Positions 11,801 to 24,702 are shown, counted from the first letter of the stretch. The stretch is 49,746 bases of DNA from an uncultured Alphaproteobacteria bacterium (GCA_944390205.1 CALXPF010000002.1:1-49746), one strand, 5' to 3'. Translations and numbers: made by a program. Notes: generated by a model not told the origin, from the sequence alone.

Positions 11801-12069
11801 AAATCGCAGATAACTATTATTCATCTCGAGAGGAATTACTCTTTTTCGGTTCTTCTAAGTTTTCAAAAAATTGGTCTGTTTCCGGTTATTATCGCTATGA
11901 TTTGGCTAAAGAGGGAGGGCCTGTTGAGGCGGGTCTTATTACACAATATGACAACGAGTGTATCACGATTGCATTTGATGTGGAACGCTCTTTTACCAGT
12001 GATCGTGATTACAGCGGCGGGACATCGATGACCGTTAAATTCATTTTGAAATCTTTGGGGGGTATGTAA
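8818..12069 (+). CDS. lptD: Single ORF joining an LptF/LptG-family permease (aa 1-370) to LptD (aa 371-1083)
   Basis: Residues 1-370 look like a YjgP/YjgQ permease ('YILKQIF...', hydrophobic helices, a periplasmic beta-jellyroll-like middle, and three C-terminal helices). At 9928 an in-frame ATG opens 'MILIALITSLIASTAVAQ|V', a signal peptide. OstA-N-like ('VFYDKKNDTVIASGDVVAIQEKTILKADKLVYNR') and LptD barrel sequence follow. There is no stop codon between the two parts. 'aagggg' lies 11 nt upstream of 9928. Confidence 0.8.
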   Translation: MKLLNKYILKQIFVGFVLVLASMTVLVWLTQSLKMIDMIVTNGVPVRIFLKMTLLVLPNFLQVLSPLALFAVVLFVFSRMQSDKELMVMQAIGMSPKQIMKPALMFAFVLTILGFVLTLVLVPEATTALREMKWQVKNDLSHLLLQEGQFNSFKNGLTLYVKERLPDGSVKGVMAYEAKDPEKTSVLIAKEGVVLQEEKGVRVIFQDGMRQELNPKTKQFSVLKFDQYTMWFNDKKNEGVTRSSDVGEYDLKTLILSQPKDAENDVVYRKMKVEAVKRILQPFYNFTFAFLAMFGVLSAHYNRRGQMGRINLVVVLALIIQSLALAFENISGKNLVFLPLMAVNVFLPIIVLYLIMIRGYSVKIKGVRIEMILIALITSLIASTAVAQVKADFEHAVDKDKPVDFESDTVFYDKKNDTVIASGDVVAIQEKTILKADKLVYNRQKNQMTAQGNVVLTIPDGTTTKTQELTLSGDMKEAVSGAMIMKLVDGTHITASRLKRTHAGTALYLKDVTYTPCDFCEGSAPLWSLRANDVKHDAVDKTMTYKHSFLEVKDIPIFYFPYLQTPDFTVKRKTGFLAPSLSHGEEMKGGITTPFFVNLSDNQNLLLTPTFSPTHDPLVIADYRGLYKEGFLNVQASGTRDNDDDKKQGHIKADFRYDVSDLWRIQGQYFRTSSDTYFRRYSIPGIDDSRSFLRSYIAAERFGTQNYFAVQGLSFQSLQDRVSSDSIPIIIPMMFYKISTDPLTDNGLYAFTEVDSAIYQTRQRFKSNRLSVTQGVHLPYVSTWGAAFDIIGTVRADGYQIDTGEYAFGEQKTDDTYTTGRIYPVGSVKMSYPMAMSTENTSQVLEPIVMLVSAPNSGNKDKIPDVDSIDFDFDDTNLFSRNRFAGYDRVETGTRVNYGVQWSLYDTNDRSVSTMFGQSYRLTDDDEMNALMGNADSNASDYVGRVQVNYHTISLAYRFRLDEQNMQPKKNEITLSGGSDPLRLGIDYVYLKPVQIADNYYSSREELLFFGSSKFSKNWSVSGYYRYDLAKEGGPVEAGLITQYDNECITIAFDVERSFTSDRDYSGGTSMTVKFILKSLGGM

Positions 12070-13241: not shown

Positions 13242-14104
13242 AAGGAAGTATTATGGTTTCAACGGTCTTGATTGATGGGAAAAAACAAGCTGACGAGCTT
13301 TGCTTGCAAATGAAAGAAAAAATAAAAAATTTTTCTCGTCCCCCTTGTCTGGCCGTTATTTTGGTGGGAGATAATCCGGCCAGCTTAATTTATATCAAAC
13401 ATAAAAGAAAATATGCGGAAAGACTTGGTGTCAGCGTTAAGTTTTATCAGTTATCGCCCGTTATGACGGAAGATTCTCTCTGCTCTTTTATTAAGGAGTT
13501 AAATGAAAACCCGCTCATTGACGGAATTTTGGTTCAGTTGCCGTTGCCGTTTCCGTTCGATTCCTATAAAATTATAGATACAATTGATCCCCATAAAGAT
13601 GTTGATGGCCTTTCAAGTACAAACTTGGGGTATCTATTTGTAGGTCAGCCACGTATTATTCCGTGTACACCGTTGGCTTGTATGGCCTTGTTGAAAACGG
13701 TTGTTTCCGATTTTTCCGGCCTGAATGCGGTTGTTATCGGACGATCTCGTTTGGTGGGAAAGCCTTTGGGACAATTATTGTTGGATGCAGGATGTACATT
13801 GATACAGGCTCACTCCCAAACAAAAAATTTGTCGGAACATTGTAAAAATGCTGATATTGTTGTTTCGGCAACCGGGCATACCGGCTTAATCAAAAAAGAT
13901 TTTATAAAGGCGGGAGCCGTTGTTATCGATGTCGGTATATCAAGAACACCGGAGGGTAAAATAGTCGGAGATGCCTGTGCGGACGAGCTCATGGGAATTG
14001 CAGGGGCAATTACTCCGGTTCCGGGGGGTGTCGGACCTATGACAGTCAGTATGATTTTTCAAAACCTTATTTCCATATGTGAAAAAAACTTGTATAATCG
14101 GTAA
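13238..14104 (+). CDS. folD: Bifunctional methylenetetrahydrofolate dehydrogenase/cyclohydrolase
   Basis: Motifs 'LAVILVGDNPASLIYIKHK', 'DGILVQLPLP', 'DVDG', 'CTP', 'VVIGRSRLVGKP' and 'TPVPGGVGPMT' are present. The ATGA overlaps the surA stop. An alternative start is at 13253. Confidence 0.9.
   Translation: MKGSIMVSTVLIDGKKQADELCLQMKEKIKNFSRPPCLAVILVGDNPASLIYIKHKRKYAERLGVSVKFYQLSPVMTEDSLCSFIKELNENPLIDGILVQLPLPFPFDSYKIIDTIDPHKDVDGLSSTNLGYLFVGQPRIIPCTPLACMALLKTVVSDFSGLNAVVIGRSRLVGKPLGQLLLDAGCTLIQAHSQTKNLSEHCKNADIVVSATGHTGLIKKDFIKAGAVVIDVGISRTPEGKIVGDACADELMGIAGAITPVPGGVGPMTVSMIFQNLISICEKNLYNR
14070..14098 (+). promoter_or_regulatory. Candidate sigma70 promoter with extended -10 for the secreted-protein/T4SS block
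   Basis: 'tttcca' (14070..14075), a 17-nt spacer, then 'tgtataat' (TG-n-TATAAT, 14091..14098). It lies inside the 3' end of folD, about 55 nt upstream of the 14151 start. Pattern match only. Confidence 0.3.
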
Positions 14105-14150: not shown

Positions 14151-15110
14151 ATGAGGAAACAACTTTTGTCAGGAATTGGGATATTTCTTTTAGGGACAAG
14201 CCTTTTGCTGACCTCGACTAAAGAATGTTATGCAGGGCAACCGGTTAAGTATATTGATAATATCCAGCCGATGATTATTGCCGTTTTGTCTACGTTAATT
14301 GCGGATGTTATCAATAATCTTGCCACGCTCTCCGAAGAAACGCTTCAAAACCTTATTATGGGTCCTTCCGGAGATATGTCCGGCGGTAAAAAGGTGGCTT
14401 CATCGGGAGGTGGATCATCGGGAGGTTCTTCATCGAATGCTTCTTCATCAAATGGATCCTCATCGGGGAACTCTTCATCAACATCAACCGGTTCTGCGTC
14501 CACGGGTTCTTCAACAGGTGGTTCTGCTTCCGGAACAACCGCCGGCAGTACGACGATCGAGACGGGTTCTTCTGTTCCGGGTGAGGGCTTTGTCACCGCC
14601 GAAACGGCTTCCAGTGTGTCCCCGACGGGTTATTTGTTTGGAAATGTGGCAGAAGCGGGAACGCCTCAAAAGCCTCTTGTTGATTTAACTTCTTATGGCT
14701 TATCGGAAGATCAATTGGGCAATCCGTCCGCAGCTAAAAACCTTTTGAATAAAAATTTTGTTATCAGCAACGAGAAGGGGGGAAACGCCGCTTCGCAAAC
14801 GTCATTGAAAAAGGTGTATGATAATTTGGTTCAGGTGATTTATGATGCCGGTAGCTCCGCCATGTCCGATTCGTTGAACATGATGGCCGTTTCAACCGAA
14901 TATAACAAAACGAAGGAAGAGGCGGTTGAGTTGATTAAAAAGCCGATCAATATTCGTGAAGATATTCAGGTTTGGACGGGAATGACATTGGGAATGAACA
15001 CCAACATGAATTTGTTGTTGGCGTCTGAGGCAACATCCGCCGGTTTGAATTCTGCAATAGTATTGCAGGATGCTACATCGGCCAAAGCGTTTGGGGAGGA
15101 ATTAAAATGA
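14151..15110 (+). CDS. Secreted protein P1: helical ends around a Ser/Gly/Thr low-complexity core (possible VirB5-like)
   Basis: GGAGG lies 5 nt upstream of the start. The signal peptide is '...LLLTSTKECYA|GQ'. The core is 'SSGGGSSGGSSSNASSSNGSSSGNSSSTSTGSASTGSSTGGSASGTTAGS'. The C-terminal helical part ends '...MNLLLASEATSAGLNSAIVLQD'. Confidence 0.75.
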   Translation: MRKQLLSGIGIFLLGTSLLLTSTKECYAGQPVKYIDNIQPMIIAVLSTLIADVINNLATLSEETLQNLIMGPSGDMSGGKKVASSGGGSSGGSSSNASSSNGSSSGNSSSTSTGSASTGSSTGGSASGTTAGSTTIETGSSVPGEGFVTAETASSVSPTGYLFGNVAEAGTPQKPLVDLTSYGLSEDQLGNPSAAKNLLNKNFVISNEKGGNAASQTSLKKVYDNLVQVIYDAGSSAMSDSLNMMAVSTEYNKTKEEAVELIKKPINIREDIQVWTGMTLGMNTNMNLLLASEATSAGLNSAIVLQDATSAKAFGEELK

Positions 15111-16093
15111 TACTAAAAAAGATTTTAATAATCGGCTTTTCTTGCCTCTTGACATCTTCGGTTTTCGCACAAGGAACGGCGTTTATTACCGGACCGCAGT
15201 TGAGTGTTGAAAAGGTATTGGATAATATTAAGACAGAACTCCAAAAGCAAGTGGGATTGGATCAAAACTTATTATCTCAATGGGAAAATTTATCGTTGGG
15301 TAATATTGTTTCTTCTCAATTAAAGACGCTTCAAAGCTCGGCTATTTCAAAGGGGCGTCAGATGAGTGACTCTCTATGGAATGCCATTAACGGGAAAAAA
15401 CCGAACGGATCCAGTGCTTCTTCCGGCGGTAAAACGTCGGGTGGCAGATCTTCGGCATCGAGCTCTTCCGGCGGAACATCGAATGCATCCACTGCTTCTT
15501 CAAGTGCTTCTTCAAGTGCTTCTTCAAGTGCTTCGTCGACCGGAACGGCGTCTTCCGGAAAACCAAACACCGGTACGGCAACGGCAGTTGCAAATTCTAC
15601 CTCATCCGCTGCTCAGGAGGCAACACAAGCGGCAAGCGGTACGACCGCAGCGACAACTTCCGGTGTTGTAGACGGCTCTTCATTGATGGAGGTGAACGGA
15701 TCAACAAATTACGGCAATTTGGAGAAGTATAAAAATGCGGAACAAAATAAAAAGTTAATTCAACAAAATCTTCAATTTAAAGCGGGGAGGACCTCTTCTG
15801 TCGGAGATTTTAATACCATTGTTCAAAATTTAGAGAATGCCATTAAGTCAACGGCAACAAATTCAACGGCTGTTTCGTTGGTCCATCAGGCAACGGCACC
15901 GAAATATTTGGATTGGGTTGAAGAGGCTGAAAAGCAGTTAGAAACGGCTCAAGATGAAAGAACGGCCATTCAATGGAATTCATTTATCACAATTTCCGGT
16001 TTGGATTTTTGGAACAAGCTATTGATTACCAAATCGGGCGCTTTGAATCTGGAAGGCATTCTTGCCAATCAAAAGGCGGGATCTCAATTTTAG
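15107..16093 (+). CDS. Secreted protein P2: helical ends around a Ser-rich core (possible VirB5-like)
   Basis: The ATGA overlaps the P1 stop. The signal peptide is 'MILKKILIIGFSCLLTSSVFA|QG'. The core contains an (ASSS)n run. The C-terminal helical part ends '...WNKLLITKSGALNLEGILANQ'. Confidence 0.75.
   Translation: MILKKILIIGFSCLLTSSVFAQGTAFITGPQLSVEKVLDNIKTELQKQVGLDQNLLSQWENLSLGNIVSSQLKTLQSSAISKGRQMSDSLWNAINGKKPNGSSASSGGKTSGGRSSASSSSGGTSNASTASSSASSSASSSASSTGTASSGKPNTGTATAVANSTSSAAQEATQAASGTTAATTSGVVDGSSLMEVNGSTNYGNLEKYKNAEQNKKLIQQNLQFKAGRTSSVGDFNTIVQNLENAIKSTATNSTAVSLVHQATAPKYLDWVEEAEKQLETAQDERTAIQWNSFITISGLDFWNKLLITKSGALNLEGILANQKAGSQF
15494..15535 (+). repeat. 12-nt in-frame microsatellite (gcttcttcaagt) x3 plus a degenerate copy
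   Basis: Three exact consecutive copies of 'gcttcttcaagt' at 15494..15529 are followed by 'gcttcgtcgac'. They encode the ASSS repeats inside P2. Confidence 0.85.
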
Positions 16094-16102
16094 GAGGTTG
16101 AA

Positions 16103-16840
16103 ATGAAGTTAGGGCGAAATATATTGATTGTTGGGGGACTCCTCATTTTACCCATGATGGGATGGGCTAATTCAACCTTTGATATCCCCGGTGTTGCTCA
16201 GTCAATTGAGCAAATTGCGGCAACGGTTAATACGACTGTCTCAGATCTTCAAGCCGTGGAAGATGCACGCCAGAAATTGCAAAATATCGGGATGCCGGGA
16301 GTTCAAAAAAGTGAAACGGTAGAAGAGCAGGCAAGTATCCTTGTGAACGAGGAAATTTTGCCGATTGTTCCGAAAGAATTAAAAAGCTTGTTAGAGGAAA
16401 AAGATCCGGACGTTGTTAAGGTGGAAGAAAAATTGAGAGAATTGATTTATTTTGATCCAAAGACAATGATCGCCACCACAGAAACGGTTGAAGGACAATC
16501 CAATAAGAATCAGGATAAACCGGGAGAATTGGCGTATCAGCAAAAATATTATGTGCTAAACTTATTGCATGCAAAGGCCGTTGCAACGATTTCACAACAA
16601 AACTCCGAAAAGACAACTGAGGATTTTAAAAAATTAAAAGAAGATTTGGAAAAAAGAGAATCAATCATTGATTTGTATAAGGGGTTGGGCATTTTGACCA
16701 TACAAATGGCGGGAAAAATGACAGAGTTAAATGTTCTGGCCTCAGAGAGAGCTCGAATTGATGCGTTGAGAGCTCTACAAGGTGCTCGTGTTGATGAAGA
16801 TAATACTTCTGCTTCAACGGGTCAGAAGGGGTTATTTTAG
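16103..16840 (+). CDS. Secreted helical protein P3 (possible VirB5-like, no low-complexity insert)
   Basis: AGGAGG lies upstream. The signal peptide is '...LLILPMMGWA|NS'. The mature N-terminus 'STFDIPGVAQSIEQIAATVNTTVSDLQ' resembles the 'IPV.D...Q' start of VirB5/TraC proteins. The protein is helical and charged throughout. Confidence 0.7.
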   Translation: MKLGRNILIVGGLLILPMMGWANSTFDIPGVAQSIEQIAATVNTTVSDLQAVEDARQKLQNIGMPGVQKSETVEEQASILVNEEILPIVPKELKSLLEEKDPDVVKVEEKLRELIYFDPKTMIATTETVEGQSNKNQDKPGELAYQQKYYVLNLLHAKAVATISQQNSEKTTEDFKKLKEDLEKRESIIDLYKGLGILTIQMAGKMTELNVLASERARIDALRALQGARVDEDNTSASTGQKGLF

Positions 16841-16857
16841 AAAGGAAAGGGTAGAAC

Positions 16858-18360
16858 ATGAAAAAACATCTTCTTTTTTTGGCTGTGTCGGTTGTATCCT
16901 TTTCACTTTTAGCAGAAGGATCCTTTGCGGCAATTACCCCGATAGAGGATGAACCGTTTGATTTGTTTTTGCCGGGGTCGGATACATTGGGAACGGTTCA
17001 AGATACGGTTCAGCAGGTTGGGAGTGCCGTGGATAGTGTCAGTGGGGTTGTCGGAAATGTCTCCGGCGTTGCGGATAAGGTTGTCGATGGGGCCGTGAAT
17101 AGCGTGACGGGTTCTGTTTCAAATGTTGTCGGCGGAGCCGTGAATAGCGTGACGGGTTCCGTTTCGAACGCCGTCAGTGGTGCTATCGGTGGGGTGACGG
17201 GCTCTGTTTCGAACGTCGTCAGTGGTACCGTGAGTGGTGTGACGGGTTCCGTTTCGAACGCCGTCAGTGGTGCTATCGGTGGGGTGACGGGCTCTGTTTC
17301 GAACGTTGTTAGCGGTACCGTGAGTGGTGTGACGGGTTCCGTTTCGAACGCCGTTGGCGGTGTCGTGGATAGTGTGACGGGCTCCGTTTCGGGTAGCATC
17401 GGCGGTGTCGTGGATAGTGTGACAGGCTCCGTTTCGGGTAGCATCGGCGGTGTCGTGGATAGTGTGACGGGCTCTGTTTCGGGTAGTATCGGCGGTGTCG
17501 TGGATAGTGTGACGGGCTCCGTTTCGGGTAGTATCGGTGGCGCTGTGGATAGTGTGACGGAGGGTATTACCGGCTCGTTGGGAAGTTTGGATCCATCGGG
17601 TGTTATGGATAGTATTGATGAGGTTGTTCCGATCTCTGATGTTTACAAGGACTTCTCGGCGGTTTTGGAAGAAATTGGTCCGATGGAGTTTTCTGCCGTC
17701 TCAACGGGTATTCCGACAACGGATAGCGAGGGTACGGTGAAAACCGAAGCACAACAGGTTCAGACGGAAAGTAATAAGGAGGCTCAACTTCAGACGGATG
17801 AAGAAGTTCTCAAACAAAATGAGGCTCTGGCCGGAGACGGTGGATGTGGTACAATTCAAGGAGCCACTCCCACTTCATCGGATGGCAAGACAAAAACTTA
17901 TACAAAGGTTGAGAGCAACGCATATGACTATGTTGAGGAAGAAATACTGAAAAAAGCTGGCGAATCAAAGTTTGCGCCCCCTCAAAAAGATTTTAAAACG
18001 GCGAATTCTTTTGTTCAAAAAGAGTTCTTTTTAACGGAGAAAAATCCTTCATCCGATCAGTTAAATGCGATGTCTTGGAAGCGGTCTCAGTATTTGAATG
18101 AGGTGGCAACAAAGGTTTTGTCCTTAAGTACGGGAATTCGATCTAAATTAAAGACAGATAGTGAATCAATTACGGGGGCCCCGACAAACGGCTGTAACCA
18201 GATTGAGGATATCCAAATTAATACAAAGGCTTCTTTGGCTCGAATTAAACAAACGGTTGCATTGATCGGAATTGGAATCGCCAATGCTGAAGTTCTGACG
18301 ACACAAATGCTTTTGGGACAGCCTCTTGAGTTGATGGCAAAACCGGAAGAGCCGAAGTAA
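16858..18360 (+). CDS. Secreted protein P4 with a 15-aa tandem-repeat array (possible VirB5-like ends)
   Basis: The signal peptide is 'MKKHLLFLAVSVVSFSLLAEGSFA|AI'. Ten 15-residue units follow ('VTGSVSN(A/V)VSG(A/T)(I/V)(G/S)G', 'VTGSVSGSIGGVVDS'). The C-terminal helical domain ends '...AEVLTTQMLLGQPLELMA'. Confidence 0.8.
   Translation: MKKHLLFLAVSVVSFSLLAEGSFAAITPIEDEPFDLFLPGSDTLGTVQDTVQQVGSAVDSVSGVVGNVSGVADKVVDGAVNSVTGSVSNVVGGAVNSVTGSVSNAVSGAIGGVTGSVSNVVSGTVSGVTGSVSNAVSGAIGGVTGSVSNVVSGTVSGVTGSVSNAVGGVVDSVTGSVSGSIGGVVDSVTGSVSGSIGGVVDSVTGSVSGSIGGVVDSVTGSVSGSIGGAVDSVTEGITGSLGSLDPSGVMDSIDEVVPISDVYKDFSAVLEEIGPMEFSAVSTGIPTTDSEGTVKTEAQQVQTESNKEAQLQTDEEVLKQNEALAGDGGCGTIQGATPTSSDGKTKTYTKVESNAYDYVEEEILKKAGESKFAPPQKDFKTANSFVQKEFFLTEKNPSSDQLNAMSWKRSQYLNEVATKVLSLSTGIRSKLKTDSESITGAPTNGCNQIEDIQINTKASLARIKQTVALIGIGIANAEVLTTQMLLGQPLELMAKPEEPK
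17104..17553 (+). repeat. Perfectly phased 45-bp tandem repeat, 10 copies, in frame within P4
   Basis: 'gtgacgg' recurs at 17104, 17149, 17194, 17239, 17284, 17329, 17374, 17419, 17464 and 17509, with a degenerate copy at 17554. The spacing is exactly 45 bp. Copies 2/4 and 3/5 form a 90-bp higher-order unit, and copies 7-10 are near identical. Confidence 0.95.
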
Positions 18361-18373
18361 AGGAGGAGTTGCT

Positions 18374-19504
18374 ATGATGAAAAAAACGTATCTTGTATTG
18401 CCGGCATTCTTACTTCTCTTGTTTCCTCTGAGGGGTGAGGCAGTTTGTACCACGCTGAAATGTATTTTAGAAGCCGGAAGCGGAACGCCTATTTCCGATA
18501 TTTCTAAACAGGCTCAGGATTATGTTAAGCAATATCAGTTGCAGGTAACGGAGAAATTGACGGATATTCAATCTATTCTTGAGGGGACCCAAAAGGATAT
18601 GATTAACATGTTGCCGAGTGTTCAGGATGTCAAATCAAAATTGCCGGATATTCCTTCCTTGCCGGACGGATCAATCGTCTCTTCCACTATTTCCAATTAT
18701 ATCGATCAGGGAGCGGAAAATATGCGGGATGTTATTGAAAGTCAGGGAGAGGCTTTCGTCAATAAATACTGGAGAGAGGATCAACAGAGTGCCTCAAGCG
18801 GGGGGGGATCTTCTTCAGCGTCCGGTAATTCCGGATCGACAAGCGGATCGTCTTCAACATCCGGAAATGTCGGAACGACCGGTGGAACTTCAACGACTGC
18901 GGGAACGGCCGGAACAACCACCGGAACAACGGGCACAACCGCGGGAACAACCGGAACAACAGCCGGGACGACCGGTACAGCATCACAAGCGGGGGTTCAG
19001 GCATCTCAAACAGCCGAAAATATTGTCGGATCCGTTTCCGATAAAGGCATTAACAGTACCGCAGATACCGTTGATAAAAACATGTCGGAGAATGCTCAGA
19101 ACTTAATTGAGCGAGAAGAAAAGGGCGGTTTGAAAAATGAAACATATGCTCGTCAAATGCGAATGTATGAAGAACAACAAGCCGTGATTAAAAATATGGC
19201 TCGTGTTTTGATTTTAAAAGATCAACTCGAAAAATTGGCTAAAATGGTGGAAGAGTTGGAAGATTCTCTGTCTGTCAGCACACCCAATAAATATGCGGGA
19301 GTTATCTTGGATTCCACACAATTGCAAGGAACGGATAAAGTGTCGGCCATTAAGGAGAATATAGCCGTGCGGTTGGTCGAATATCAGTTGACAATGTTGT
19401 TGCAACAAATTTGGGCGTTTAGCTTAGAGCTACAAGCAGATCAACAACTGGCTTCAATTCCTTCAATCAGAAACATTAAAACATTGACAGAAACATTTGA
19501 ATAA
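18374..19504 (+). CDS. Secreted protein P5: helical ends around a Ser/Gly then Thr/Gly-rich core (possible VirB5-like)
   Basis: AGGAGG lies upstream. The signal peptide is '...LLLLFPLRGEA|VC'. The core is 'SSGGGSSSASGNSGSTSGSSSTSGNVGTTGGTSTTAGTAGTTTGTTGTTAGTTGTTAGTTGTAS'. The C-terminal coiled part ends '...LLQQIWAFSLELQADQQLAS'. Confidence 0.75.
   Translation: MMKKTYLVLPAFLLLLFPLRGEAVCTTLKCILEAGSGTPISDISKQAQDYVKQYQLQVTEKLTDIQSILEGTQKDMINMLPSVQDVKSKLPDIPSLPDGSIVSSTISNYIDQGAENMRDVIESQGEAFVNKYWREDQQSASSGGGSSSASGNSGSTSGSSSTSGNVGTTGGTSTTAGTAGTTTGTTGTTAGTTGTTAGTTGTASQAGVQASQTAENIVGSVSDKGINSTADTVDKNMSENAQNLIEREEKGGLKNETYARQMRMYEEQQAVIKNMARVLILKDQLEKLAKMVEELEDSLSVSTPNKYAGVILDSTQLQGTDKVSAIKENIAVRLVEYQLTMLLQQIWAFSLELQADQQLASIPSIRNIKTLTETFE
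18872..18980 (+). repeat. Degenerate short in-frame repeats (ggaaca/acg/acc units) encoding (T/A)GTT runs
   Basis: The sequence is visibly reiterated: 'ggaacaaccaccggaacaacgggcacaaccgcgggaacaaccggaacaacagccgggacgaccggtaca'. It is imperfect, with a period of about 12 nt. Confidence 0.6.
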
Positions 19505-19515
19505 GGATGATATTC

Positions 19516-21135
19516 ATGGAATACAGATCTTTTTTTATGCTTACGGTTTCATCGCTTTTGTTATCATCGGTTGCCGTGGCTGAGTCGCCGTTTGTTAAAG
19601 TAGAACGAGTTCCGGCGGCTCAAACTCAGGCGGAAAAGCAAAGTAATTATCAAATTCCGTTGTTGAAAGCGTTGGATTTGCATAATTTAATGGTGTCTCT
19701 CCCTTCTTTTCGTCAATTCCAACAGACGCAAGCGGATGCAAAGGAGCAATTGGACTACCAAAATAAACGATTCGATGATATGACGGCTTGTAATATTCGA
19801 CGACTTGGAAAATATTTCCAAAATCCGGAGGATGTTTGGGAGAAAATGACAAAAACTTATGATGCTCAGGAAAAACAATTGGCCGTTTTCTTGAATTCGG
19901 CACAGCGGTACGATCCCGATCAATTGCCCAATGTGACGCCGGACGATCAAACGATTATTGAACAAAATGCCACATGGACGCTGGGGAAAAATATTTTAAC
20001 GGATGTGTATGCCAATCCCGAAAAATGGGGGACCCCAAAGGGTGGGGTCGGAAAATCTTCGGTTTTCCCGCTTTGGAAAGATCAAAAATATCTCTATGAT
20101 AAAGAGTATAATGATTTTTATGCTCAAATAAATGCGTATTTCGGCGTTTCTGCGGATATACTTCCCCAAATCGGTGATCAGAAGTACGACTATACACAGT
20201 ATGGCGAATTGATTAAAGCGCATGCCGATTATCTGAAAAAAATTAGTGCGAGGGCTCCCCAAAAATTAATGGGAATGCCGGCTTCTTTCAAAACACCTCC
20301 GGTACCGCCCAAACCGCTTCCGCCGGCAGATGAAATCATAAAATATATCGGGGATCCTGAAAAAACAGGACAAGTCTTTCCGGAATGGCCGGAACCATGG
20401 CAAAAATTTATGAAAAGTAATTTTGAGGATTTCAATCCGACGGGGGAAATGGCCCAAGATTTTGTCGGAAAATCACTGCGTCTTAAAGAGAGTGTTCGTA
20501 ATCAAGATGCAACCCTTCAAAATAATCGACTGAATGTTTATCAGGGTATCAAAAAGGAAAGGAGTACGGCTCAAAAGTTGGTCGAAATTACTCAGGCGGA
20601 AGAAAATGATTTGATGAATGTATTGGATTCCAGACTCGCTTCGCACGGCCTCACCATGGAAACACCGAATTTGCTGGATGAAACACAGTATAATCAGGTT
20701 AAAGAGGCTATCCGTGACCGGAAAGAGATGTATTTAAAACAAGCTGAGGAAGAAATGAGTATGCTTCCGAGTTCTTCGGGGGATGGGCAAGAAACATTAT
20801 CCGTGGAAAGTGTTTTATCTATTTCACCGCAAGGTCAGGAAGATGTTTTGGACCAATTAACAAAAGATCGTTCGCTTTATGTAAAAACGGCTGATGCGAT
20901 ACAATCTTCACGTGTGTATCAGGCTCGTCAATTGATTGATGCTCTTAAAACGGATTCGGACGGGCATGTCACTTTATCTCGTCAAAATGCGGGTCAAATC
21001 GATCAATTGATGAAAGAAGCTACCGCAACGGAGGCTTTAAAGAAAGAGATAGAGTCGTTTAATAAAAGAATGAATAAAACCCAAAGAAAAAAATTGGATG
21101 ATATGTGCTTAAACGGAGGAACATATATCCAATGA
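19516..21135 (+). CDS. Secreted hypothetical protein P6 with a Pro-rich segment
   Basis: The track ORF starts at 19507. The ATG at 19516 lies 8 nt after AAGGA and gives the signal peptide 'MEYRSFFMLTVSSLLLSSVAVA|ES'. The protein has an internal 'TPPVPPKPLPP' and a charged helical C-terminal half. No family was recognised. The stop overlaps the next start (ATGA at 21132). Confidence 0.7.
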   Translation: MEYRSFFMLTVSSLLLSSVAVAESPFVKVERVPAAQTQAEKQSNYQIPLLKALDLHNLMVSLPSFRQFQQTQADAKEQLDYQNKRFDDMTACNIRRLGKYFQNPEDVWEKMTKTYDAQEKQLAVFLNSAQRYDPDQLPNVTPDDQTIIEQNATWTLGKNILTDVYANPEKWGTPKGGVGKSSVFPLWKDQKYLYDKEYNDFYAQINAYFGVSADILPQIGDQKYDYTQYGELIKAHADYLKKISARAPQKLMGMPASFKTPPVPPKPLPPADEIIKYIGDPEKTGQVFPEWPEPWQKFMKSNFEDFNPTGEMAQDFVGKSLRLKESVRNQDATLQNNRLNVYQGIKKERSTAQKLVEITQAEENDLMNVLDSRLASHGLTMETPNLLDETQYNQVKEAIRDRKEMYLKQAEEEMSMLPSSSGDGQETLSVESVLSISPQGQEDVLDQLTKDRSLYVKTADAIQSSRVYQARQLIDALKTDSDGHVTLSRQNAGQIDQLMKEATATEALKKEIESFNKRMNKTQRKKLDDMCLNGGTYIQ

Positions 21136-21773
21136 GTTCGCAAGAATTATCTCGACGTGTTTTAGGGAAAAAAGGAAGTTCCGAGTTCTTAGCCAAGTTC
21201 TGGATGATTGTTGCGGCTGTTATCATCGCATTCAATTTATTGATTGTCTTAACATTGTTGCAAATGGCTCCGCGTCTAAAAGTTATTTCTCAAATATTGA
21301 CTTCTCCGATGAATTCTAATCAGTTGATTCAAGCTGAGCCTTTATCTTCCGATATCGGTGACAAAAAGTTATTGGATGAGATGCTGATTCGATATTATTT
21401 GGAAATGCGGTTATCTTTGTTTGCCGATCAAACGGAATTTAATCGGCGCATAGGTGTTGGCGGACCTGTCTGGTTGCTTTCGAATGCAGAGGTTTATCGA
21501 CAATTTTTAAGGGGGTTCGGAGAAGAGGCTACTCAACTTCGGAATCTCTCTTATACGGAAAGTGTCGATATACATCGAATCAGCCGTTTGGGAAATACAT
21601 TTACGGTCGAGTTTGATGTGGTTCGCCTCCTCGGAAGCACGATTTCACGAGAAAGCAAAGTAGCCATCATTGAGATTATACATGACCCTTCCAGACGTGT
21701 TTTCAGAACTACTTTTGCAAATCCGTACGGATTAACCGTTGTTAAATATAACGAGTCAAAGAAAAAGCAATAA
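21132..21773 (+). CDS. virB8: VirB8-like T4SS inner-membrane protein, copy 1
   Basis: It has a short cytoplasmic N-terminus, one TM helix ('FWMIVAAVIIAFNLLIVLTLL') and a periplasmic domain with VirB8-like landmarks ('EMLIRYYLEMRLS', C-terminal 'NPYGLTVVKYNES'). It is a paralogue of the 22052 gene. Confidence 0.7.
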   Translation: MSSQELSRRVLGKKGSSEFLAKFWMIVAAVIIAFNLLIVLTLLQMAPRLKVISQILTSPMNSNQLIQAEPLSSDIGDKKLLDEMLIRYYLEMRLSLFADQTEFNRRIGVGGPVWLLSNAEVYRQFLRGFGEEATQLRNLSYTESVDIHRISRLGNTFTVEFDVVRLLGSTISRESKVAIIEIIHDPSRRVFRTTFANPYGLTVVKYNESKKKQ

Positions 21774-21853: not shown

Positions 21854-22030
21854 ATGAAAAAGCATTTATTCTTATTGAGCGTCTTGGCCGTTTTGGCCTT
21901 GGTGGCGTGCGGTTCTGTTTACGAAAAAGAAACGGTTGGTATCGGCCCTGACTATTCTGAGTTAAAGAAGTCTCCGTGCGCTTGTTTGGAGTTAAAAAGA
22001 GTTCCAAAAACAGTCTCTTGGATTTCTTAA
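21854..22030 (+). CDS. Small lipoprotein in the VirB7 position (58 aa, not in the ORF track)
   Basis: An ATG at 21854 follows 'gaaaggaaa'. The translation is 'MKKHLFLLSVLAVLALVAC|GSVYEKETVGIGPDYSELKKSPCACLELKRVPKTVSWIS' with a lipobox L-V-A-C, and the stop is at 22028..22030. It sits between two VirB8 paralogues, as rvhB7 does in Rickettsiales. Confidence 0.6.
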   Translation: MKKHLFLLSVLAVLALVACGSVYEKETVGIGPDYSELKKSPCACLELKRVPKTVSWIS

Positions 22031-22051: not shown

Positions 22052-22759
22052 ATGACTGTTGATACGACTCATTCAGAAGAAGAAATACGCGGAATGGAGA
22101 GTGATATCTCCGAAGAAGCCGTTAAAGAGCGGCGATATCTTTGGATGGCTCGAACGTTTGCGTTGGTTTGTGTCGTTTCGTTTTTGGCAACACTTATCTT
22201 GTTGAGCGCGTTGTTTTCTCTTCTTCCGATTGTTCGGGTTCAGCCCTTTTATTTAAGCACAATGGATAAGGATCAACAAATTATCAGTATTCAAAGACCT
22301 AATTATGCAGAATTGGATATGAATTTGTTGACGGAGTCATTCATCAGACAGTATCTGTTGTCTCGATTAACGGTGGGTACTAATATTCCGGAGTTGGAGC
22401 GTCGCTGGGGAATTGACGGAAATGTGAACTGGATGAGTGAGTCCTCTGTTTTTCAAGAGTTTGCTCGTACGGCCAATCTTCTTTTAGAACAGGCGCGAAA
22501 AGAGGGCTTGACGCGGAATGTTAAAATTTTGGTTGTTTCGCCGTATCGTTCCGAAGGCGAGGGCGTTAATGTGTGGCGTGCCGAAATCGAGTTGACGGAT
22601 ATGAAACAGGGAGACAGTCAGCCGACAAAATCCAAATGGTTGGTTGTCATGCAGGTGGCTTTTCGTCCGACAAGGCCGGGATTAACGTGGGATCAACGAT
22701 TAAAAAATCCACTTGGATTTACTGTCTTGAAGTTTGGAATTCAAGCCTTGCCGTCTTAA
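22052..22759 (+). CDS. virB8: VirB8-like T4SS inner-membrane protein, copy 2
   Basis: It has one TM helix ('FALVCVVSFLATLILLSALFSLL') followed by 'PIVRVQPFYL', 'SFIRQYLLSRLT' and C-terminal 'KNPLGFTVLKFG'. These parallel Agrobacterium VirB8 'VPLSRLVPVYLW', 'SLWEYVRLRESY' and 'TNPGGLVVTSYQ'. Confidence 0.75.
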   Translation: MTVDTTHSEEEIRGMESDISEEAVKERRYLWMARTFALVCVVSFLATLILLSALFSLLPIVRVQPFYLSTMDKDQQIISIQRPNYAELDMNLLTESFIRQYLLSRLTVGTNIPELERRWGIDGNVNWMSESSVFQEFARTANLLLEQARKEGLTRNVKILVVSPYRSEGEGVNVWRAEIELTDMKQGDSQPTKSKWLVVMQVAFRPTRPGLTWDQRLKNPLGFTVLKFGIQALPS

Positions 22760-22872: not shown

Positions 22873-24702
22873 ATGTTAAAAGGAAAATTTCGTAAATTAA
22901 ATTGGTTGGGGGCGACAAGCTTAGTTATTTTGTTAAGTGTTGCGGCGCAAGCTCAACAAATGTTGCCGGCTGATGTAGAGGCCGGTCAGCTCAGCGATGC
23001 CATAGCTCAAACAACCGGAGAGTTTGATCAAGTGAATTTAAATTACATTCATTCGTTGGGAATGCAACAAAAGGCATGGAATGATCCGTTGTCTCATTTG
23101 GGGGAGGGACAGACCAAACCGGGATATTCAAAATATTTGTGGTCTCCGGATGTTGTTTTGCCCATTCGTTTGCGAGAGGGGATGATGACGCTTATTAACT
23201 TCCCGACATGGGAGTTGATTGAAAAAGTTCATATCGGTTCTCCCGAATCTTTCGGCGGTGAAATTGCCGCACCGAATTCTCTCCTTGTTTATGCGGATCC
23301 GTCTTATATTGGTGTAGATAGCAATATGATTGTTTTTGGTCGATCCGGAAATCGGTATGTGTTTTATTTGAGAAGTGAAACGTACAATACGGATAAAATT
23401 ACACAATCGGTTGTCGATGTTTTGGTGGGCCCCAAATATACACCGGTTGAAAACGGAGGAAAACTCGGAAATTTTAACGGAGCCACGATCACAGCCTCTT
23501 CCAATACGTCAGTAAGCGGATCGGCTGCTCCGGGATGGGCAGGTCGTGGCTCTCAGAATCCTCAAATCGGCTTAAACACGGCATCAACGGGACCGAAAGA
23601 TTGGTTAAAATCGATACCGGTGGATCCGGAAAGTTTCCGGTTTGATATTGACATGTATTTGCCGAATCCGGCAGATGTTGATATGGCTCCGGAGAATGTC
23701 TGGCGTGATAATATTTTCACATATATTGACATGGGACCTAAAGCCCTAACGATGACGCAACGTCCGATTGTTAATTTGATCGTTCAAGATACGGAGGTTC
23801 CCGTCGGGTTTAGAACGAGGGGACCGAACAGCCGTTTAATCGTGGTGGAAGCTATCGGTGATTTGGTTTTGAGAAACGGTAAAAAAATTATTTGCTTGAA
23901 GCTCAGACGGGATCCTGCTTCCGGATTGGAGTATATTGATTATAGCGGATCTCAGGGACAGTCTGCTTCGTGGAGCGGAAAACCGTCGACTCAAAATAAT
24001 GCAGATTCAACTGGGGCGAACGGAGCTTCCGGTGCAATGGGCGGGAGCGATTCTCTCATGGGGGCCGGTGATTCTTCAATGACCGCCGGATCTTCTGTTA
24101 TGTCTCAATCTTCATTATCCGCGTCTCAGTCAATGAGCGGATACGCCGAGGGAATGAATGCGGATGGAACGTTTAAAGCTCAATTCCCCATGACAATGGA
24201 TGGGCAGACGATTACGCCGGACATGATGTCGGGCGGTGCCGCCGGAATTAATGCTGAGTTCGTCAACTCGTATCCGTCGTTTGTCTATACACAGGAGATG
24301 GCTCCCATTCAGGGAATTCCGGCAGAAGTTAAAAATTCTCCGTCGGCATCTTCCGGTATTGTCGGCGTGATGAATCAAATTACGACTTCAAAGTCTTCTG
24401 CGGGTTCGACATCTTCCGATGTCAGAACGTTTATCAGTGATAAAGAAACAATTTCCGTTGAATTGGGAACGCATGCCAGTATGGCCGAGCTTGAGACAAT
24501 TTGGGATAGCATTTATTCTAAAAACCAAGATTTGTTAAAAGGATATGAACCATATTATTCCGTTGATGCAACGGCAGACGGAGACGTGCGTGAATTGTTC
24601 CGGTTGCGGATCGGCCCGATGAAGAATGTAAAAACGGCTGATACTTTGTGTCAAAAGTTGGGACGCCGTGGGTTTACATGTTCAGTTGTACGGGTTCAAT
24701 AA
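22873..24702 (+). CDS. virB9: VirB9-like T4SS outer-membrane core protein with a long disordered linker and C-terminal SPOR-like domain
   Basis: The signal peptide is '...LVILLSVAAQA|QQ'. The VirB9/TrbG N-domain pattern is present ('YLWSPDVVLPIRLREGMMTLINFPTWELIEKVHIGSPESF...NSLLVYADP...NMIVFGRSGNRYVFYL'). The C-domain pattern is also present ('FRFDIDMY...MAPENVWRDNIFTYIDMG...PIVNLIV...LIVVEAIGDLVLRNGKKIICLK'). A Ser/Gly/Met-rich stretch follows, and then 'FRLRIGPMKNVKTADTLCQKLGRRGFTCSVVRV' (SPOR-like). Confidence 0.75.
   Translation: MLKGKFRKLNWLGATSLVILLSVAAQAQQMLPADVEAGQLSDAIAQTTGEFDQVNLNYIHSLGMQQKAWNDPLSHLGEGQTKPGYSKYLWSPDVVLPIRLREGMMTLINFPTWELIEKVHIGSPESFGGEIAAPNSLLVYADPSYIGVDSNMIVFGRSGNRYVFYLRSETYNTDKITQSVVDVLVGPKYTPVENGGKLGNFNGATITASSNTSVSGSAAPGWAGRGSQNPQIGLNTASTGPKDWLKSIPVDPESFRFDIDMYLPNPADVDMAPENVWRDNIFTYIDMGPKALTMTQRPIVNLIVQDTEVPVGFRTRGPNSRLIVVEAIGDLVLRNGKKIICLKLRRDPASGLEYIDYSGSQGQSASWSGKPSTQNNADSTGANGASGAMGGSDSLMGAGDSSMTAGSSVMSQSSLSASQSMSGYAEGMNADGTFKAQFPMTMDGQTITPDMMSGGAAGINAEFVNSYPSFVYTQEMAPIQGIPAEVKNSPSASSGIVGVMNQITTSKSSAGSTSSDVRTFISDKETISVELGTHASMAELETIWDSIYSKNQDLLKGYEPYYSVDATADGDVRELFRLRIGPMKNVKTADTLCQKLGRRGFTCSVVRVQ

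What the first reader, a model, noticed from the sequence alone, without database searches (positions are those of the whole stretch)
14151..19504. Tandem array of five secreted proteins with conserved helical ends and hypervariable low-complexity cores: candidate VirB5-like surface components
P1 to P5 each start with a clear Sec signal peptide. P1, P2, P4 and P5 share one architecture: an N-terminal amphipathic, Gln-rich helical segment, a Ser/Gly/Thr-rich or tandem-repeat core of very different length and composition, and a C-terminal helical domain. P3 has the same ends without the insert. Each C-terminal domain ends in a similar hydrophobic, Gln-containing helix: 'MNLLLASEATSAGLNSAIVLQ', 'WNKLLITKSGALNLEGILANQ', 'MTELNVLASERARIDALRALQ', 'AEVLTTQMLLGQPLELM', 'LLQQIWAFSLELQADQQL'. 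The mature N-termini (for example 'FDIPGVAQSIEQIAATV...DLQ') and these C-terminal helices resemble VirB5/TraC minor-pilin adhesins by eye. rvh-type systems are reported to lack VirB5. An amplified, diversified VirB5-like family next to the scaffold genes would therefore be new for this T4SS class. It would parallel the amplified trwJ/trwL surface genes of the Bartonella Trw system.
Basis: inference. Interest (0 to 1): 0.8.

Follow-up and report, generated by a model that had tools for sequence, protein, structure and literature searches.

The report
Five divergent VirB5-like T4SS proteins
Next to the core genes of a chromosomal type IV secretion system in an uncultured gut alphaproteobacterium lie five fast-evolving secreted helical proteins that are most likely very distant relatives of VirB5, the protein capping the secretion pilus; a whole clade of gut bacteria keeps this multi-copy set, which is an unusual variation on a known theme.

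Summary
P1-P5 are real genes, each with a Sec signal peptide. They are tightly packed upstream of P6-VirB8-VirB7-VirB8-VirB9-VirB10-VirB11. They are not a recent tandem amplification: pairwise BLAST finds nothing, and each has its own positional orthologs in about 60 related gut alphaproteobacterial MAGs (4-6 copies per locus, most often 5).

Profile-profile comparison shows that P1-P4 share a C-terminal domain of about 110 residues (P 5e-7 to 5e-5); P5 is marginal and P6 is unrelated. No Pfam, NCBIfam or PDB sequence hit exists. However, the domain matches (P about 1e-7) the proteins at the VirB5 position in the most closely related T4SS operons, on Erythrobacter and Microvirga plasmids. One of these passes Pfam's VirB5 threshold, though only through its N-terminal motif. 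Direct similarity to canonical VirB5 is weak (P about 1e-3).

An AlphaFold model (pLDDT 72) has the VirB5/CagL-like layout. Its best Foldseek hit is CagL, but the hit is not significant.

The Ser/Gly/Thr cores are insertions at a permissive central site; they recur across lineages and hold all the indels between near-identical strains.

The "rvh-type" framing is not supported. Verdict: probable divergent VirB5 paralog set, a new variant of a known kind.

The parts
14070..14098 (+). Candidate sigma-70-like promoter (TTTCCA-17-TATAAT) in the FolD-P1 junction
   Evidence: Best-scoring site (10/12) in the scan. The number of sites in the region is not above the shuffle expectation, so this is only a candidate.
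14151..15110 (+). P1, 319 aa: signal peptide, N-terminal helix, S/G/T-rich core (68-160), C-terminal VirB5-like helical domain
   Evidence: P1 family profile against the Erythrobacter VirB5-position protein gives P=1.8e-7; against the bridge profile 1.4e-7.
15107..16093 (+). P2, 328 aa: same architecture, core at 92-203
   Evidence: P2 family against P1 gives 4.6e-7; against the bridge profile 1.4e-7. A 'PVxD'-like motif lies near the mature N-terminus (P=0.015).
16103..16840 (+). P3, 245 aa: same ends, no low-complexity core; modelled by AlphaFold2
   Evidence: AF2 with a 58-sequence MSA gives pLDDT 72 and pTM 0.60, with helices 28-61, 91-97, 104-115, 141-184 and 188-225. Top Foldseek hit is CagL at E=0.75. 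The family has only 48 hits among 1.84 billion representatives.
16858..18360 (+). P4, 500 aa: signal peptide, repeat core, C-terminal VirB5-like domain
   Evidence: P4 family against Ery_251 gives 6.3e-7. Orthologs are mostly 220-290 aa without the repeat.
17092..17560 (+). 45-nt (15-aa) tandem repeat array forming the P4 core
   Evidence: TRF. The array is 69 aa shorter in L003, and a 100-N assembly gap lies here in L001.
18374..19504 (+). P5, 376 aa: signal peptide, core at 131-215, C-terminal helical domain; marginal member of the family
   Evidence: Against P1-P4: 0.004-0.04. Against the bridge profile: 4.2e-4. Closest to the second protein after VirB5 in the plasmid systems: 1.7e-4. Fused to P6 in the Scatocola-type loci.
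19507..21135 (+). P6, 542 aa: secreted orphan protein, conserved in 72 loci, unrelated to P1-P5; likely a further T4SS-associated component
   Evidence: No TM helices beyond the signal peptide.
21105..21773 (+). VirB8 paralog a (divergent)
   Evidence: Pfam PF04335, E=7.5e-7. 25% identical to paralog b.
21854..22030 (+). VirB7-like lipoprotein, 58 aa, lipobox LVAC, motif IGIGP...LKKSPCAC
   Evidence: 42% identical to the 58-aa protein at the VirB7 position of the Microvirga operon.
22052..22759 (+). VirB8 paralog b
   Evidence: Pfam PF04335, E=3.2e-15.
22873..24702 (+). VirB9 (CagX domain) with a C-terminal SPOR domain
   Evidence: This was the query that retrieved 80 syntenic loci.
24730..31341 (+). 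Giant VirB10 (2203 aa): beta-flower repeats plus a C-terminal TrbI domain
   Evidence: The size is conserved in relatives.
31355..32344 (+). VirB11 ATPase
   Evidence: 43% identical to the Microvirga pMVF16-3 homolog, against 24% to Agrobacterium VirB11.

Best explanation
P1-P5 are a set of ancient, very divergent paralogs of the VirB5 family, the minor pilin / stalk-tip protein of P-type type IV secretion systems. They belong to a chromosomal, vertically inherited T4SS of a clade of uncultured gut Alphaproteobacteria.

Shown here: they are Sec-signal-bearing, mostly helical proteins. They are packed head-to-tail, probably co-transcribed, with P6-VirB8-VirB7-VirB8-VirB9-VirB10-VirB11. P1-P4 share one C-terminal domain, and P5 probably does. 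That domain is homologous to the C-terminal half of the VirB5-position proteins of the nearest T4SS relatives. P1-P5 evolve about 2-3 times faster than the core genes. A central site accepts Ser/Gly/Thr-rich or repeat insertions that change length between near-identical strains.

Inferred: after export to the periplasm they assemble on the inner-membrane VirB6 platform as the stalk or pilus tip, as VirB5 does in R388. They are then pushed through the VirB7/9/10 outer-membrane complex. On the surface they expose the variable central region for contact with target cells, mucus or host surfaces, and possibly for antigenic variation. Several distinct paralogs would give either mixed (hetero-oligomeric) tips or alternative tips.
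For: Real genes and conserved array: positional orthologs of every member occur in most of 80 syntenic loci. Copy number is 5 in 26 of 44 complete arrays, 4 in 10 and 6 in 4, always between FolD and P6-VirB8. Mutual homology of P1-P4: hhalign P 4.6e-7 to 4.8e-5 with reversed controls 0.25-0.76. Link to VirB5: the window's VirB7/9/10/11 are closest to the Microvirga and Erythrobacter plasmid T4SSs (43/40/37/42% identity against 22-24% for Agrobacterium). In those operons the protein directly after VirB4 matches P1, P2 and P4 at 1.4-2.3e-7, P3 at 1e-5 and P5 at 4e-4, and does not match P6 (0.49); reversed controls are 0.17-0.69. The Erythrobacter protein passes the Pfam PF07996 gathering threshold (30.3 bits against 24.7). 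The Microvirga one is sub-threshold but collinear over profile positions 1-168. Direct, weaker evidence: canonical VirB5 profile against P3 gives 0.0026. The pooled P1-P4 plus bridge C-terminal profile against canonical VirB5 C-halves gives 0.0012 over 75 collinear columns, with reversed control 0.57. Structure: the AF2 model of P3 (pLDDT 72, pTM 0.60) has one long N-terminal helix, a cluster of short helices and two long C-terminal helices, the layout described for TraC. The top Foldseek hit among 350,542 PDB chains is CagL, the VirB5-like protein of the Cag T4SS, with 8 CagL chains in the top 32. Fast evolution: median identity to orthologs is 23-28%, against 69% for VirB9, 60% and 45% for the VirB8s and 56% for FolD. 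Insertions: SGT-rich cores of at least 30 aa recur in 12-22 members of each of the five families, never in P6, and always centrally. All indels against L003 lie in the cores. Literature: VirB5 forms a pentamer on a VirB6 pentamer and is pushed out at the pilus tip (PMC9259494, PMC12857230).
Against: No window protein, and none of 58 P3-family or 119 P1/P2/P5-family members, hits PF07996 even at E<=1. NCBIfam and PDB sequence searches are empty. The strong link is transitive and uses different halves of the bridge protein: Pfam's VirB5 call on the Erythrobacter protein comes from residues 30-90 (28.1 bits), and its C-terminal half alone gives no hit. With signal peptides removed, the N-terminal similarity of the P families to VirB5 is weak or absent (0.015-0.34). 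Foldseek has no match with E<=0.001; the CagL hit has E=0.75 and TM 0.32-0.42, and TraC and TrwJ are not among the top 50. Long amphipathic helices are prone to spurious profile matches, although the reversed controls argue against that here. P5 membership is marginal. No VirB2, VirB3, VirB4, VirB6 or VirD4 is present in the window, so a functional pilus or stalk context is assumed, not shown.
Confidence: 0.65

Rival explanations
1. P1-P5 are lineage-specific periplasmic or outer-membrane accessory proteins of this T4SS type. They share a helical domain with the Microvirga/Erythrobacter proteins but are not true VirB5 homologs. On this view the bridge proteins would be chimeras of a VirB5 N-terminal motif and an unrelated C-terminal helical domain, and P1-P5 would have some other role, such as spacing, anchoring the giant VirB10, or binding peptidoglycan or mucus.
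For: PF07996 support for the bridge protein is confined to its N-terminal 60 residues. The P families show at best a weak N-terminal VirB5 motif. There are no direct Pfam hits in 177 family members. Foldseek is not significant. The system is unusual in other ways, with a 2203-aa VirB10 and a VirB9-SPOR fusion.
Against: The bridge proteins have VirB5 size (251 and 273 aa), sit directly after VirB4, and are the only VirB5 candidates in otherwise complete operons. VirB5 is a single-domain helical bundle in which N- and C-terminal helices pack together, so a chimera is unlikely (established knowledge, TraC structure as described in PMC2653234). With the N-terminal motif removed, the C-terminal halves still align collinearly with canonical VirB5 (P 0.0012 and 0.013 against reversed 0.57 and 0.4). 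The top structural hit is a VirB5-like protein.
Confidence: 0.17
2. P1-P5 are Sec-secreted surface or mucin-like adhesins, or secreted effectors, that are merely co-located and co-transcribed with the T4SS genes and are not part of the machine. The profile similarities would reflect helical and compositional bias.
For: S/T/G-rich mucin-like cores (weak Pfam Mucin hit for P2). Very fast evolution. No direct family assignment.
Against: The array has kept a fixed position and order, immediately upstream of and overlapping the T4SS scaffold genes, across a clade whose VirB9 has diverged to about 50% identity. Most orthologs have no low-complexity core at all. Reversed-profile controls are flat, and the unrelated neighbour P6, also secreted and helical, does not match. 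P5 is fused to P6 in one subclade, indicating a physical complex.
Confidence: 0.08
3. The array is an rvh-type (Rickettsiales vir homolog) system that has secondarily gained VirB5-like genes.
For: VirB8 is duplicated with a VirB7-like gene between the copies, and the T4SS genes are split over at least two genomic sites, both reminiscent of rvh (hallmarks listed in PMC11077975).
Against: The hosts are gut MAGs labelled Alphaproteobacteria, and the one named genus is placed in Rhodospirillales. The closest core-protein relatives found are plasmid conjugative systems with a relaxase, VirD4 and VirB5. Only one VirB9 is seen. VirB4 and VirB6 copy numbers are unknown. No comparison with Rickettsiales sequences could be made.
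Confidence: 0.1

Closest known systems
VirB5 / TraC / TrwJ family (Pfam PF07996), minor pilin and stalk-tip protein of P-type T4SS
   Same: Sec signal peptide. Mature size of about 220-290 aa in most orthologs. Mostly helical, with one long N-terminal and two long C-terminal helices around a small helical insert. Encoded inside a T4SS operon upstream of VirB7/VirB8. Fast-evolving. Profile homology to VirB5-position proteins of the nearest T4SS relatives.
   Different: No direct PF07996 hit. N-terminal IPVxD motif weak or absent. 4-6 distinct paralogs instead of one. Large low-complexity or repeat insertions in many members. No adjacent VirB4 or VirB6.
Bartonella Trw T4SS (multiple variable trwJ/VirB5 and trwL/VirB2 copies)
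   Same: Several sequence-variable VirB5-type genes in one chromosomal T4SS of a host-associated alphaproteobacterium. No VirD4 next to the cluster. Variable surface-exposed parts are a plausible purpose.
   Different: Trw copies arose by recent tandem co-amplification of trwJ-trwI-trwH and of trwL, and the copies are recognisably similar to each other. Here the paralogs share no pairwise BLAST similarity. Each is individually conserved in position across a whole clade, and no VirB2, VirB6 or VirB7 copies are co-amplified.
Helicobacter pylori CagL (with CagI/CagH), VirB5-like adhesin module of the Cag T4SS
   Same: CagL is the best structural match to the P3 model. It is a highly diverged VirB5-like helical protein undetectable by standard sequence profiles. 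Several small secreted proteins with a shared C-terminal region are encoded together (CagH/I/L: own knowledge, not tested here).
   Different: The Foldseek match is not significant (E=0.75). There is no RGD motif, no sequence similarity, and the T4SS lineage is different.
VirB5-position proteins of Microvirga pMVF16-3 and Erythrobacter aureus plasmid T4SSs
   Same: Closest detectable relatives of the P1-P4 C-terminal domain (P about 1e-7). Same T4SS lineage by VirB7/9/10/11 similarity. The next gene in those operons also carries the domain and is closest to P5.
   Different: The plasmid systems are complete conjugative operons (relaxase, VirB2-B4, VirD4) with one or two such genes, a normal-sized VirB10 and a single VirB8.
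Rickettsiales vir homolog (rvh) T4SS
   Same: VirB8 duplication with VirB7 nearby; scaffold genes separated from the VirB3/B4/B6 genes.
   Different: rvh is defined as lacking a VirB5 analog and is a Rickettsiales signature. The host clade and the nearest relatives found here are different, and the other hallmarks are untested.

Membership tests
VirB5/TraC (Pfam PF07996) | Sequence reaches the PF07996 model (gathering score 24.7 bits) | tested here: not met
   No hit at E<=1 for window P1-P5, 45 and 58 P3-family members, or 119 P1/P2/P5-family members. NCBIfam VirB5/TrbJ models also give no hit.
VirB5/TraC (Pfam PF07996) | Profile-level homology to a protein that is itself a PF07996 member | tested here: met
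   The Erythrobacter protein L087:8923-9678 (PF07996 30.3 bits) against P1 1.8e-7, P2 5.6e-7, P4 6.3e-7, P3 3.4e-4 and P5 1.4e-3, with reversed controls >=0.25. Caveat: the matched region (C-terminal half) is not the region that carries the Pfam score.
VirB5/TraC (Pfam PF07996) | Profile-level homology to canonical VirB5 (Agrobacterium, Xanthomonas, IncX, Rhizobium, Shinella, Sphingomonas) | tested here: inconclusive
   Seven-sequence VirB5 profile against P3 0.0026 and P2 0.042, others not significant. Pooled C-terminal superfamily profile against VirB5 C-halves 0.0012 over 75 columns, reversed 0.57.
VirB5/TraC (Pfam PF07996) | N-terminal '(G)IPVxD' motif followed by a long helix directly after the signal peptide | tested here: inconclusive
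   Mature N-termini only: P2 0.015, P5 0.015 (motif 'PVxD'), P3 0.044, P1 0.34, P4 0.14. Earlier, better values were inflated by signal-peptide residues.
VirB5/TraC (Pfam PF07996) | Sec signal peptide and small secreted protein (about 220-250 aa) | tested here: met
   Median ortholog lengths are 259-319 aa including the signal peptide.
VirB5/TraC (Pfam PF07996) | Fold: three long bundled helices plus a small globular appendage (TraC) | tested here: inconclusive
   The AF2 P3 model (pLDDT 72) has the matching order of elements. Foldseek against PDB finds no significant match; the top hit is the VirB5-like CagL at E=0.75 and TM 0.32-0.42, and TraC/TrwJ are not in the top 50.
VirB5/TraC (Pfam PF07996) | Gene sits in a T4SS operon between VirB4 and VirB6/VirB7/VirB8 | tested here: inconclusive
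   Directly upstream of P6-VirB8-VirB7-VirB8-VirB9-B10-B11, but no VirB4 or VirB6 in the window. The upstream neighbour is FolD.
VirB5/TraC (Pfam PF07996) | Pentamer on VirB6; location at the pilus tip | not testable with these tools
   Needs multimer modelling or experiment.
rvh T4SS (hallmarks as listed in PMC11077975) | VirB8 duplication | tested here: met
   Two VirB8 genes, 25% identical.
rvh T4SS (hallmarks as listed in PMC11077975) | VirB9 and VirB4 duplication, multicopy VirB6 | not testable with these tools
   One VirB9 and no VirB4 or VirB6 in the window. The rest of the genome is not available.
rvh T4SS (hallmarks as listed in PMC11077975) | No VirB5 analog | tested here: not met
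   P1-P5 are the probable VirB5 analogs.
rvh T4SS (hallmarks as listed in PMC11077975) | Host in Rickettsiales | tested here: not met
   All 80 related loci come from animal-gut MAGs labelled Alphaproteobacteria. The only named genus, Ca. Scatocola, is filed under Rhodospirillales. No phylogeny was made.
Trw-type amplification (Bartonella) | Several sequence-variable VirB5 copies in one T4SS locus | tested here: met
   4-6 copies per locus.
Trw-type amplification (Bartonella) | Recent tandem duplicates that remain similar, co-amplified with VirB6/VirB7 and with VirB2 copies | tested here: not met
   No pairwise BLAST similarity between copies. Each copy has its own orthologs. No VirB2 or VirB6 genes in the array.

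The most novel reading that the evidence does not exclude
The five distinct paralogs are not alternatives. Together they would build one hetero-pentameric VirB5 tip or stalk cap, one subunit of each, in place of the homopentamer seen in R388. That would give an intrinsically asymmetric T4SS tip, each position carrying its own variable surface insert. The modal copy number of five, the fixed gene order across the clade and the individual conservation of each paralog fit this reading. The loci with four or six copies, and the possibility that P5 corresponds to a different (second) plasmid protein, speak against a strict 1:1:1:1:1 rule.
Probability: 0.12. Interest if true: 0.85.

Novelty: new variant of a known kind. 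Interest (0 to 1): 0.55.

Why it matters
VirB5 is the least understood essential part of P-type T4SSs. It nucleates pilus growth on VirB6, caps the pilus and contacts the target cell. Several systems are described as lacking it, possibly because it diverges beyond the reach of sequence profiles. This locus shows a VirB5-like family so divergent that Pfam, NCBIfam and a 5.8-billion-protein search miss it, found only through bridge proteins and synteny. The same approach could be applied to 'VirB5-less' systems such as rvh. It also shows a stable set of 4-6 ancient paralogs in a widespread but unstudied clade of animal and human gut Alphaproteobacteria. That raises the testable question of whether T4SS tips can be hetero-oligomeric. 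The recurring, strain-variable Ser/Gly/Thr or repeat insertions at one permissive site look like a surface-variation device in a gut commensal or symbiont.

Tried and rejected
- Pairwise BLASTP of P1-P6 with SEG masking found no similarity.
- Direct Pfam, NCBIfam and PDB-sequence searches with single proteins and with family profiles returned only noise.
- The word-indexed protein search with P3 alone found only P3 itself. With family alignments it found only 21 and 6 proteins, because these proteins are too divergent for the index.
- The first AF2 run with a 21-sequence MSA gave pLDDT 48 and was discarded.
- My first iterated HMM searches cross-linked the families. They included signal peptides, so I did not rely on them and repeated the test with stripped, masked positional groups and reversed controls.
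- N-terminal comparisons that still contained signal-peptide residues gave P down to 7e-6. I rejected these after the signal-peptide-free repeat gave 0.015-0.34.
- The apparent 100-bp length difference of P4 between the window and the ENA scaffold is a run of 100 N, not variation.
- P6 against the plasmid proteins at the equivalent position: no similarity.
- IncX VirB5 proteins against the P families: no similarity.
- Minus-strand ORFs inside the region (for example 17010-17444) mirror the repeats and have no support.
- No tRNA or Rfam elements in the window.
- A literature search for the T4SS of the RF32 gut clade found nothing.

Full report
**Observation**

They are separated by -4 to +17 nt, and P5 is followed after 2 nt by a sixth secreted ORF, P6 (19507-21135). 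Each starts with a typical Sec signal peptide. Ser/Gly/Thr-rich cores occupy P1 68-160, P2 92-203, P4 81-253 and P5 131-215; P3 has none. The P4 core is a 45-nt tandem repeat at 17092-17560. Minus-strand ORFs in the region are mirror images of these biased stretches.

**Context**

Downstream lie:
- VirB8 (21105-21773);
- an unannotated 58-aa lipoprotein with lipobox LVAC (21854-22030);
- a second VirB8 (22052-22759);
- VirB9 with a SPOR domain;
- a 2203-aa VirB10 with beta-flower repeats;
- VirB11.

The cluster ends there: HtpG follows on the other strand. The rest of the window is housekeeping (LptF/G-LptD, SurA and FolD upstream; LepA, GroEL, RNase R and AdhE downstream). VirB2, B3, B4, B6 and D4 are not in the window. 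The window matches a metagenome scaffold, ENA ERZ28614322.

**The array is old and conserved, not a recent amplification**

A scan of species-representative genomes with VirB9 returned 80 syntenic loci. All are from uncultured Alphaproteobacteria of ruminant, rabbit, human and chicken guts, with VirB9 identity of 41-95%.

In these loci the same order recurs: FolD, then 4-6 signal-peptide proteins of about 250-300 aa, then P6, VirB8, the small ORF, VirB8, VirB9 and a giant VirB10. Among 44 arrays with a defined upstream end, 26 have five genes, 10 have four and 4 have six.

P3, P4, P5 and P6 each find their own positional orthologs by phmmer. By contrast, BLASTP between P1-P6 finds nothing (best E=0.6).

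Most orthologs lack long low-complexity cores. Even so, cores of at least 30 aa recur in 12-22 members of each of the five families, never in P6, and always in the central part of the protein. Against the closest relative, L003, all indels and the mismatch peaks are in the cores, whereas P3 is 95% identical without indels. A supposed 100-bp difference in another assembly is a scaffold gap, a reminder that repeat lengths in these assemblies need long-read confirmation.

P1-P5 evolve far faster than their neighbours. Median identity to orthologs is 23-28%, against 34% for P6, 45% and 60% for the VirB8s, 56% for FolD and 69% for VirB9.

**Mutual homology**

I defined ortholog groups by position, cut 25 N-terminal residues, deleted the SGT-rich stretches and compared group profiles with hhalign.
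- P1-P4 align collinearly over their C-terminal 95-125 residues, with P from 4.6e-7 to 4.8e-5.
- P5 aligns over the same region at 0.004-0.04.
- P6 does not align.
- Reversed-profile controls give 0.2-0.96.

The shared domain includes a helix start resembling 'D-[IV]-Q-[VI]-[NW]-T': P1 REDIQVWT, P4 IEDIQINT, P2 RTAIQWNS (and direct reading). So the refutation criterion 'no mutual homology after masking' is not met for P1-P4. P5 is a probable, not proven, member.

**What family?**

Direct searches fail:
- no PF07996 or any other credible Pfam hit for the window proteins, for 45 and 58 P3-family members or for 119 P1/P2/P5 members;
- nothing in NCBIfam;
- nothing in PDB sequences with the P3 profile.

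The P3 family has only 48 members at E<=1e-3 among 1.84 billion representative proteins and is unannotated.

The lead came from the core genes. The window's VirB11 is 43% identical to a homolog on Microvirga plasmid pMVF16-3, against 23-28% for ordinary VirB11s. VirB10, VirB9 and the VirB7-like lipoprotein (shared motif IGIG..LKKSPCAC) are likewise closest to the Microvirga plasmid and a related Erythrobacter aureus plasmid.

Those plasmids carry complete operons: relaxase, VirB2, B3, B4, X, Y, B7, B8, B9, B10, B11, D4. Protein X, directly after VirB4, is 273 aa in Microvirga and 251 aa in Erythrobacter.
- The Erythrobacter protein passes the Pfam PF07996 gathering score (30.3 bits). The Microvirga protein is sub-threshold but collinear.
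- A two-sequence profile of X matches P1 (1.4e-7), P2 (1.4e-7), P4 (2.3e-7), P3 (1e-5) and P5 (4.2e-4). It does not match P6 (0.49). Reversed controls are 0.17-0.69.
- Protein Y, the next gene, also carries the domain and is closest to P5 (1.7e-4).

**Caveats on the VirB5 link**

The PF07996 score of the Erythrobacter protein comes from residues 30-90 (28.1 bits). Its C-terminal half, which is the part that matches P1-P5, gives no Pfam hit on its own. X matches canonical VirB5 at 2.5e-8, but over only 39 N-terminal columns. So the chain P family - X - VirB5 runs through different halves of X.

I tested both halves directly.
- N-terminal half, with signal peptides cut at predicted sites: similarity of the P families to VirB5 is weak. 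P2 and P5 give 0.015 with a 'PVxD'-like motif, P3 gives 0.044, and P1 and P4 are not significant. The better values were signal-peptide artefacts.
- C-terminal half, with the N-terminal motif removed: X against canonical VirB5 gives 0.013. The pooled P1-P4+X C-terminal profile against canonical VirB5 gives 0.0012 over 75 collinear columns, with reversed control 0.57.
- The seven-sequence canonical profile matches P3 at 0.0026.

These direct links are weak, but they are consistent in register. VirB5 is a single-domain bundle in which the N- and C-terminal helices pack together (TraC description quoted in PMC2653234). A chimera explanation for X is therefore unlikely, though not excluded.

**Structure**

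With a 58-sequence MSA, AlphaFold2 gave a usable P3 model (pLDDT 72, pTM 0.60; C-terminal helices at pLDDT 85-92). It has a long helix at 28-61, short helices between 82 and 124, and long helices at 141-184 and 188-225. This is the order of elements described for TraC: three long helices plus a small appendage.

Foldseek against 350,542 PDB chains found no significant match. The top hit is H. pylori CagL, the VirB5-like protein of the Cag system (E=0.75, TM 0.32-0.42), and eight CagL chains are in the top 32. TraC and TrwJ are not in the top 50. I count this as compatible and mildly supportive, not as proof.

The low-complexity insertions of P1, P2, P4 and P5 fall after the first long helix. 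In the P3 model this is the low-confidence loop and appendage region.

**How it most likely works**

Shown: the proteins carry Sec signal peptides (which predict export, not tested here), are encoded with the T4SS scaffold genes, form a family, evolve rapidly and carry variable central insertions.

Inferred from the R388 structure and current models (PMC9259494, PMC12857230): they assemble on a VirB6 platform as the stalk or pilus tip and are pushed through the outer-membrane complex. At the surface, the variable central region is displayed for adhesion or antigenic variation. Several paralogs give either mixed or alternative tips.

I put about 0.65 on 'divergent VirB5 homologs acting at the T4SS tip or stalk'. 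The main rival, at about 0.17, is a lineage-specific accessory family that shares only a helical domain with protein X.

**Comparison with what is known, and novelty**

The published rvh hallmarks are duplication of VirB8, VirB9 and VirB4, multicopy VirB6, and no VirB5 analog, in Rickettsiales (PMC11077975).

Only the VirB8 duplication is seen here (the two copies are 25% identical). The hosts are gut Alphaproteobacteria whose one named genus is filed under Rhodospirillales. The nearest relatives I could find are plasmid systems that have a VirB5. I could not compare with Rickettsiales sequences, so the class remains open, but the claim 'new for rvh' is not supported.

The closest functional precedent is Bartonella Trw, with multiple sequence-variable VirB5 and VirB2 copies and no VirD4 (PMC12857230, PMC10936683). 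Those copies are recent co-amplified duplicates. Here the paralogs are ancient, mutually unrecognisable by BLAST, fixed in order and individually conserved across a clade.

That is a new variant of a known kind. The most novel reading still open is a hetero-pentameric tip built from five different VirB5-like subunits, suggested by the modal copy number of five and the pentameric VirB5 of R388. The loci with four or six copies weaken it, and I give it about 12%.

Noticed in passing
window 8818-12069 (+): A single 1083-aa ORF joins an LptF/LptG permease domain (residues 6-355) to LptD N-terminal and LptD beta-barrel domains (406-1019). This would be a fusion of inner-membrane and outer-membrane LPS-transport parts. 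The same 1083-aa product is called on the independent ENA scaffold.
   Followed up: partly
window 24730-31341 (+): Giant VirB10 (2203 aa): about seven 5-fold beta-flower repeats, a DUF3659 segment and a C-terminal TrbI domain. A size of 2100-2500 aa is conserved in most related loci, but it is only 1146 aa in the Scatocola-type loci (L075, L082).
   Followed up: partly
window 22873-24702 (+): VirB9 (CagX domain) carries a C-terminal SPOR (peptidoglycan-binding) domain, at the Pfam threshold (21.2 bits against 21).
   Followed up: no
window 19507-21135 (+); L073, L075, L077, L078, L079, L082: P6 is a 542-aa secreted orphan found in 72 loci, with no Pfam, NCBIfam or P1-P5 similarity. In the most distant subclade, P5 and P6 are fused into one ORF of about 1420 aa, which suggests the two proteins act together.
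   Followed up: partly
window 21854-22030 (+): A 58-aa lipoprotein between the two VirB8 genes has the motif IGIGP..LKKSPCAC, shared with the Microvirga and Erythrobacter proteins at the VirB7 position. It looks like a distinctive VirB7 subtype with two conserved cysteines.
   Followed up: partly
L083 14050-15336; L087 9802-11163: In the plasmid T4SSs the gene after VirB5 (428 and 453 aa, no TM helices) also contains the P-family domain in its N-terminal half. No classical polytopic VirB6 is annotated there; a 228-aa protein with about three hydrophobic segments (L083 13334-14020) may fill that role.
   Followed up: partly
L045, L047, L052, L054, L057, L065, L067 (first gene of the array): In several relatives the P1 position is occupied by a 950-1070-aa protein that still hits the P1 profile, so it is a greatly expanded VirB5-like protein.
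   Followed up: no
L001 about 11190-11290 (the window's P4 repeat, about 17293): The public ENA scaffold of this organism has a 100-N gap inside the P4 tandem repeat. As a result, gene callers report a truncated 331-aa P4 there.
   Followed up: yes
protein P0066: A 1480-aa protein matches the P3-family profile in five separate stretches (E=1.2e-4). It may be a multi-domain or repeated version of the helical domain.
   Followed up: no
alignment A5 members: Three P1/P2/P5-family members give weak hits (best E=0.018) to Pfam DUF4141. I did not check what that family is or whether it relates to conjugation proteins.
   Followed up: no
window 7867-8814 (+): A XerC/D-type tyrosine recombinase sits just upstream of the LptFG-LptD gene. 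There is no other sign of a mobile element around the T4SS cluster, and GC content and GC skew run smoothly through it, apart from 53% GC in the P4 repeat.
   Followed up: partly
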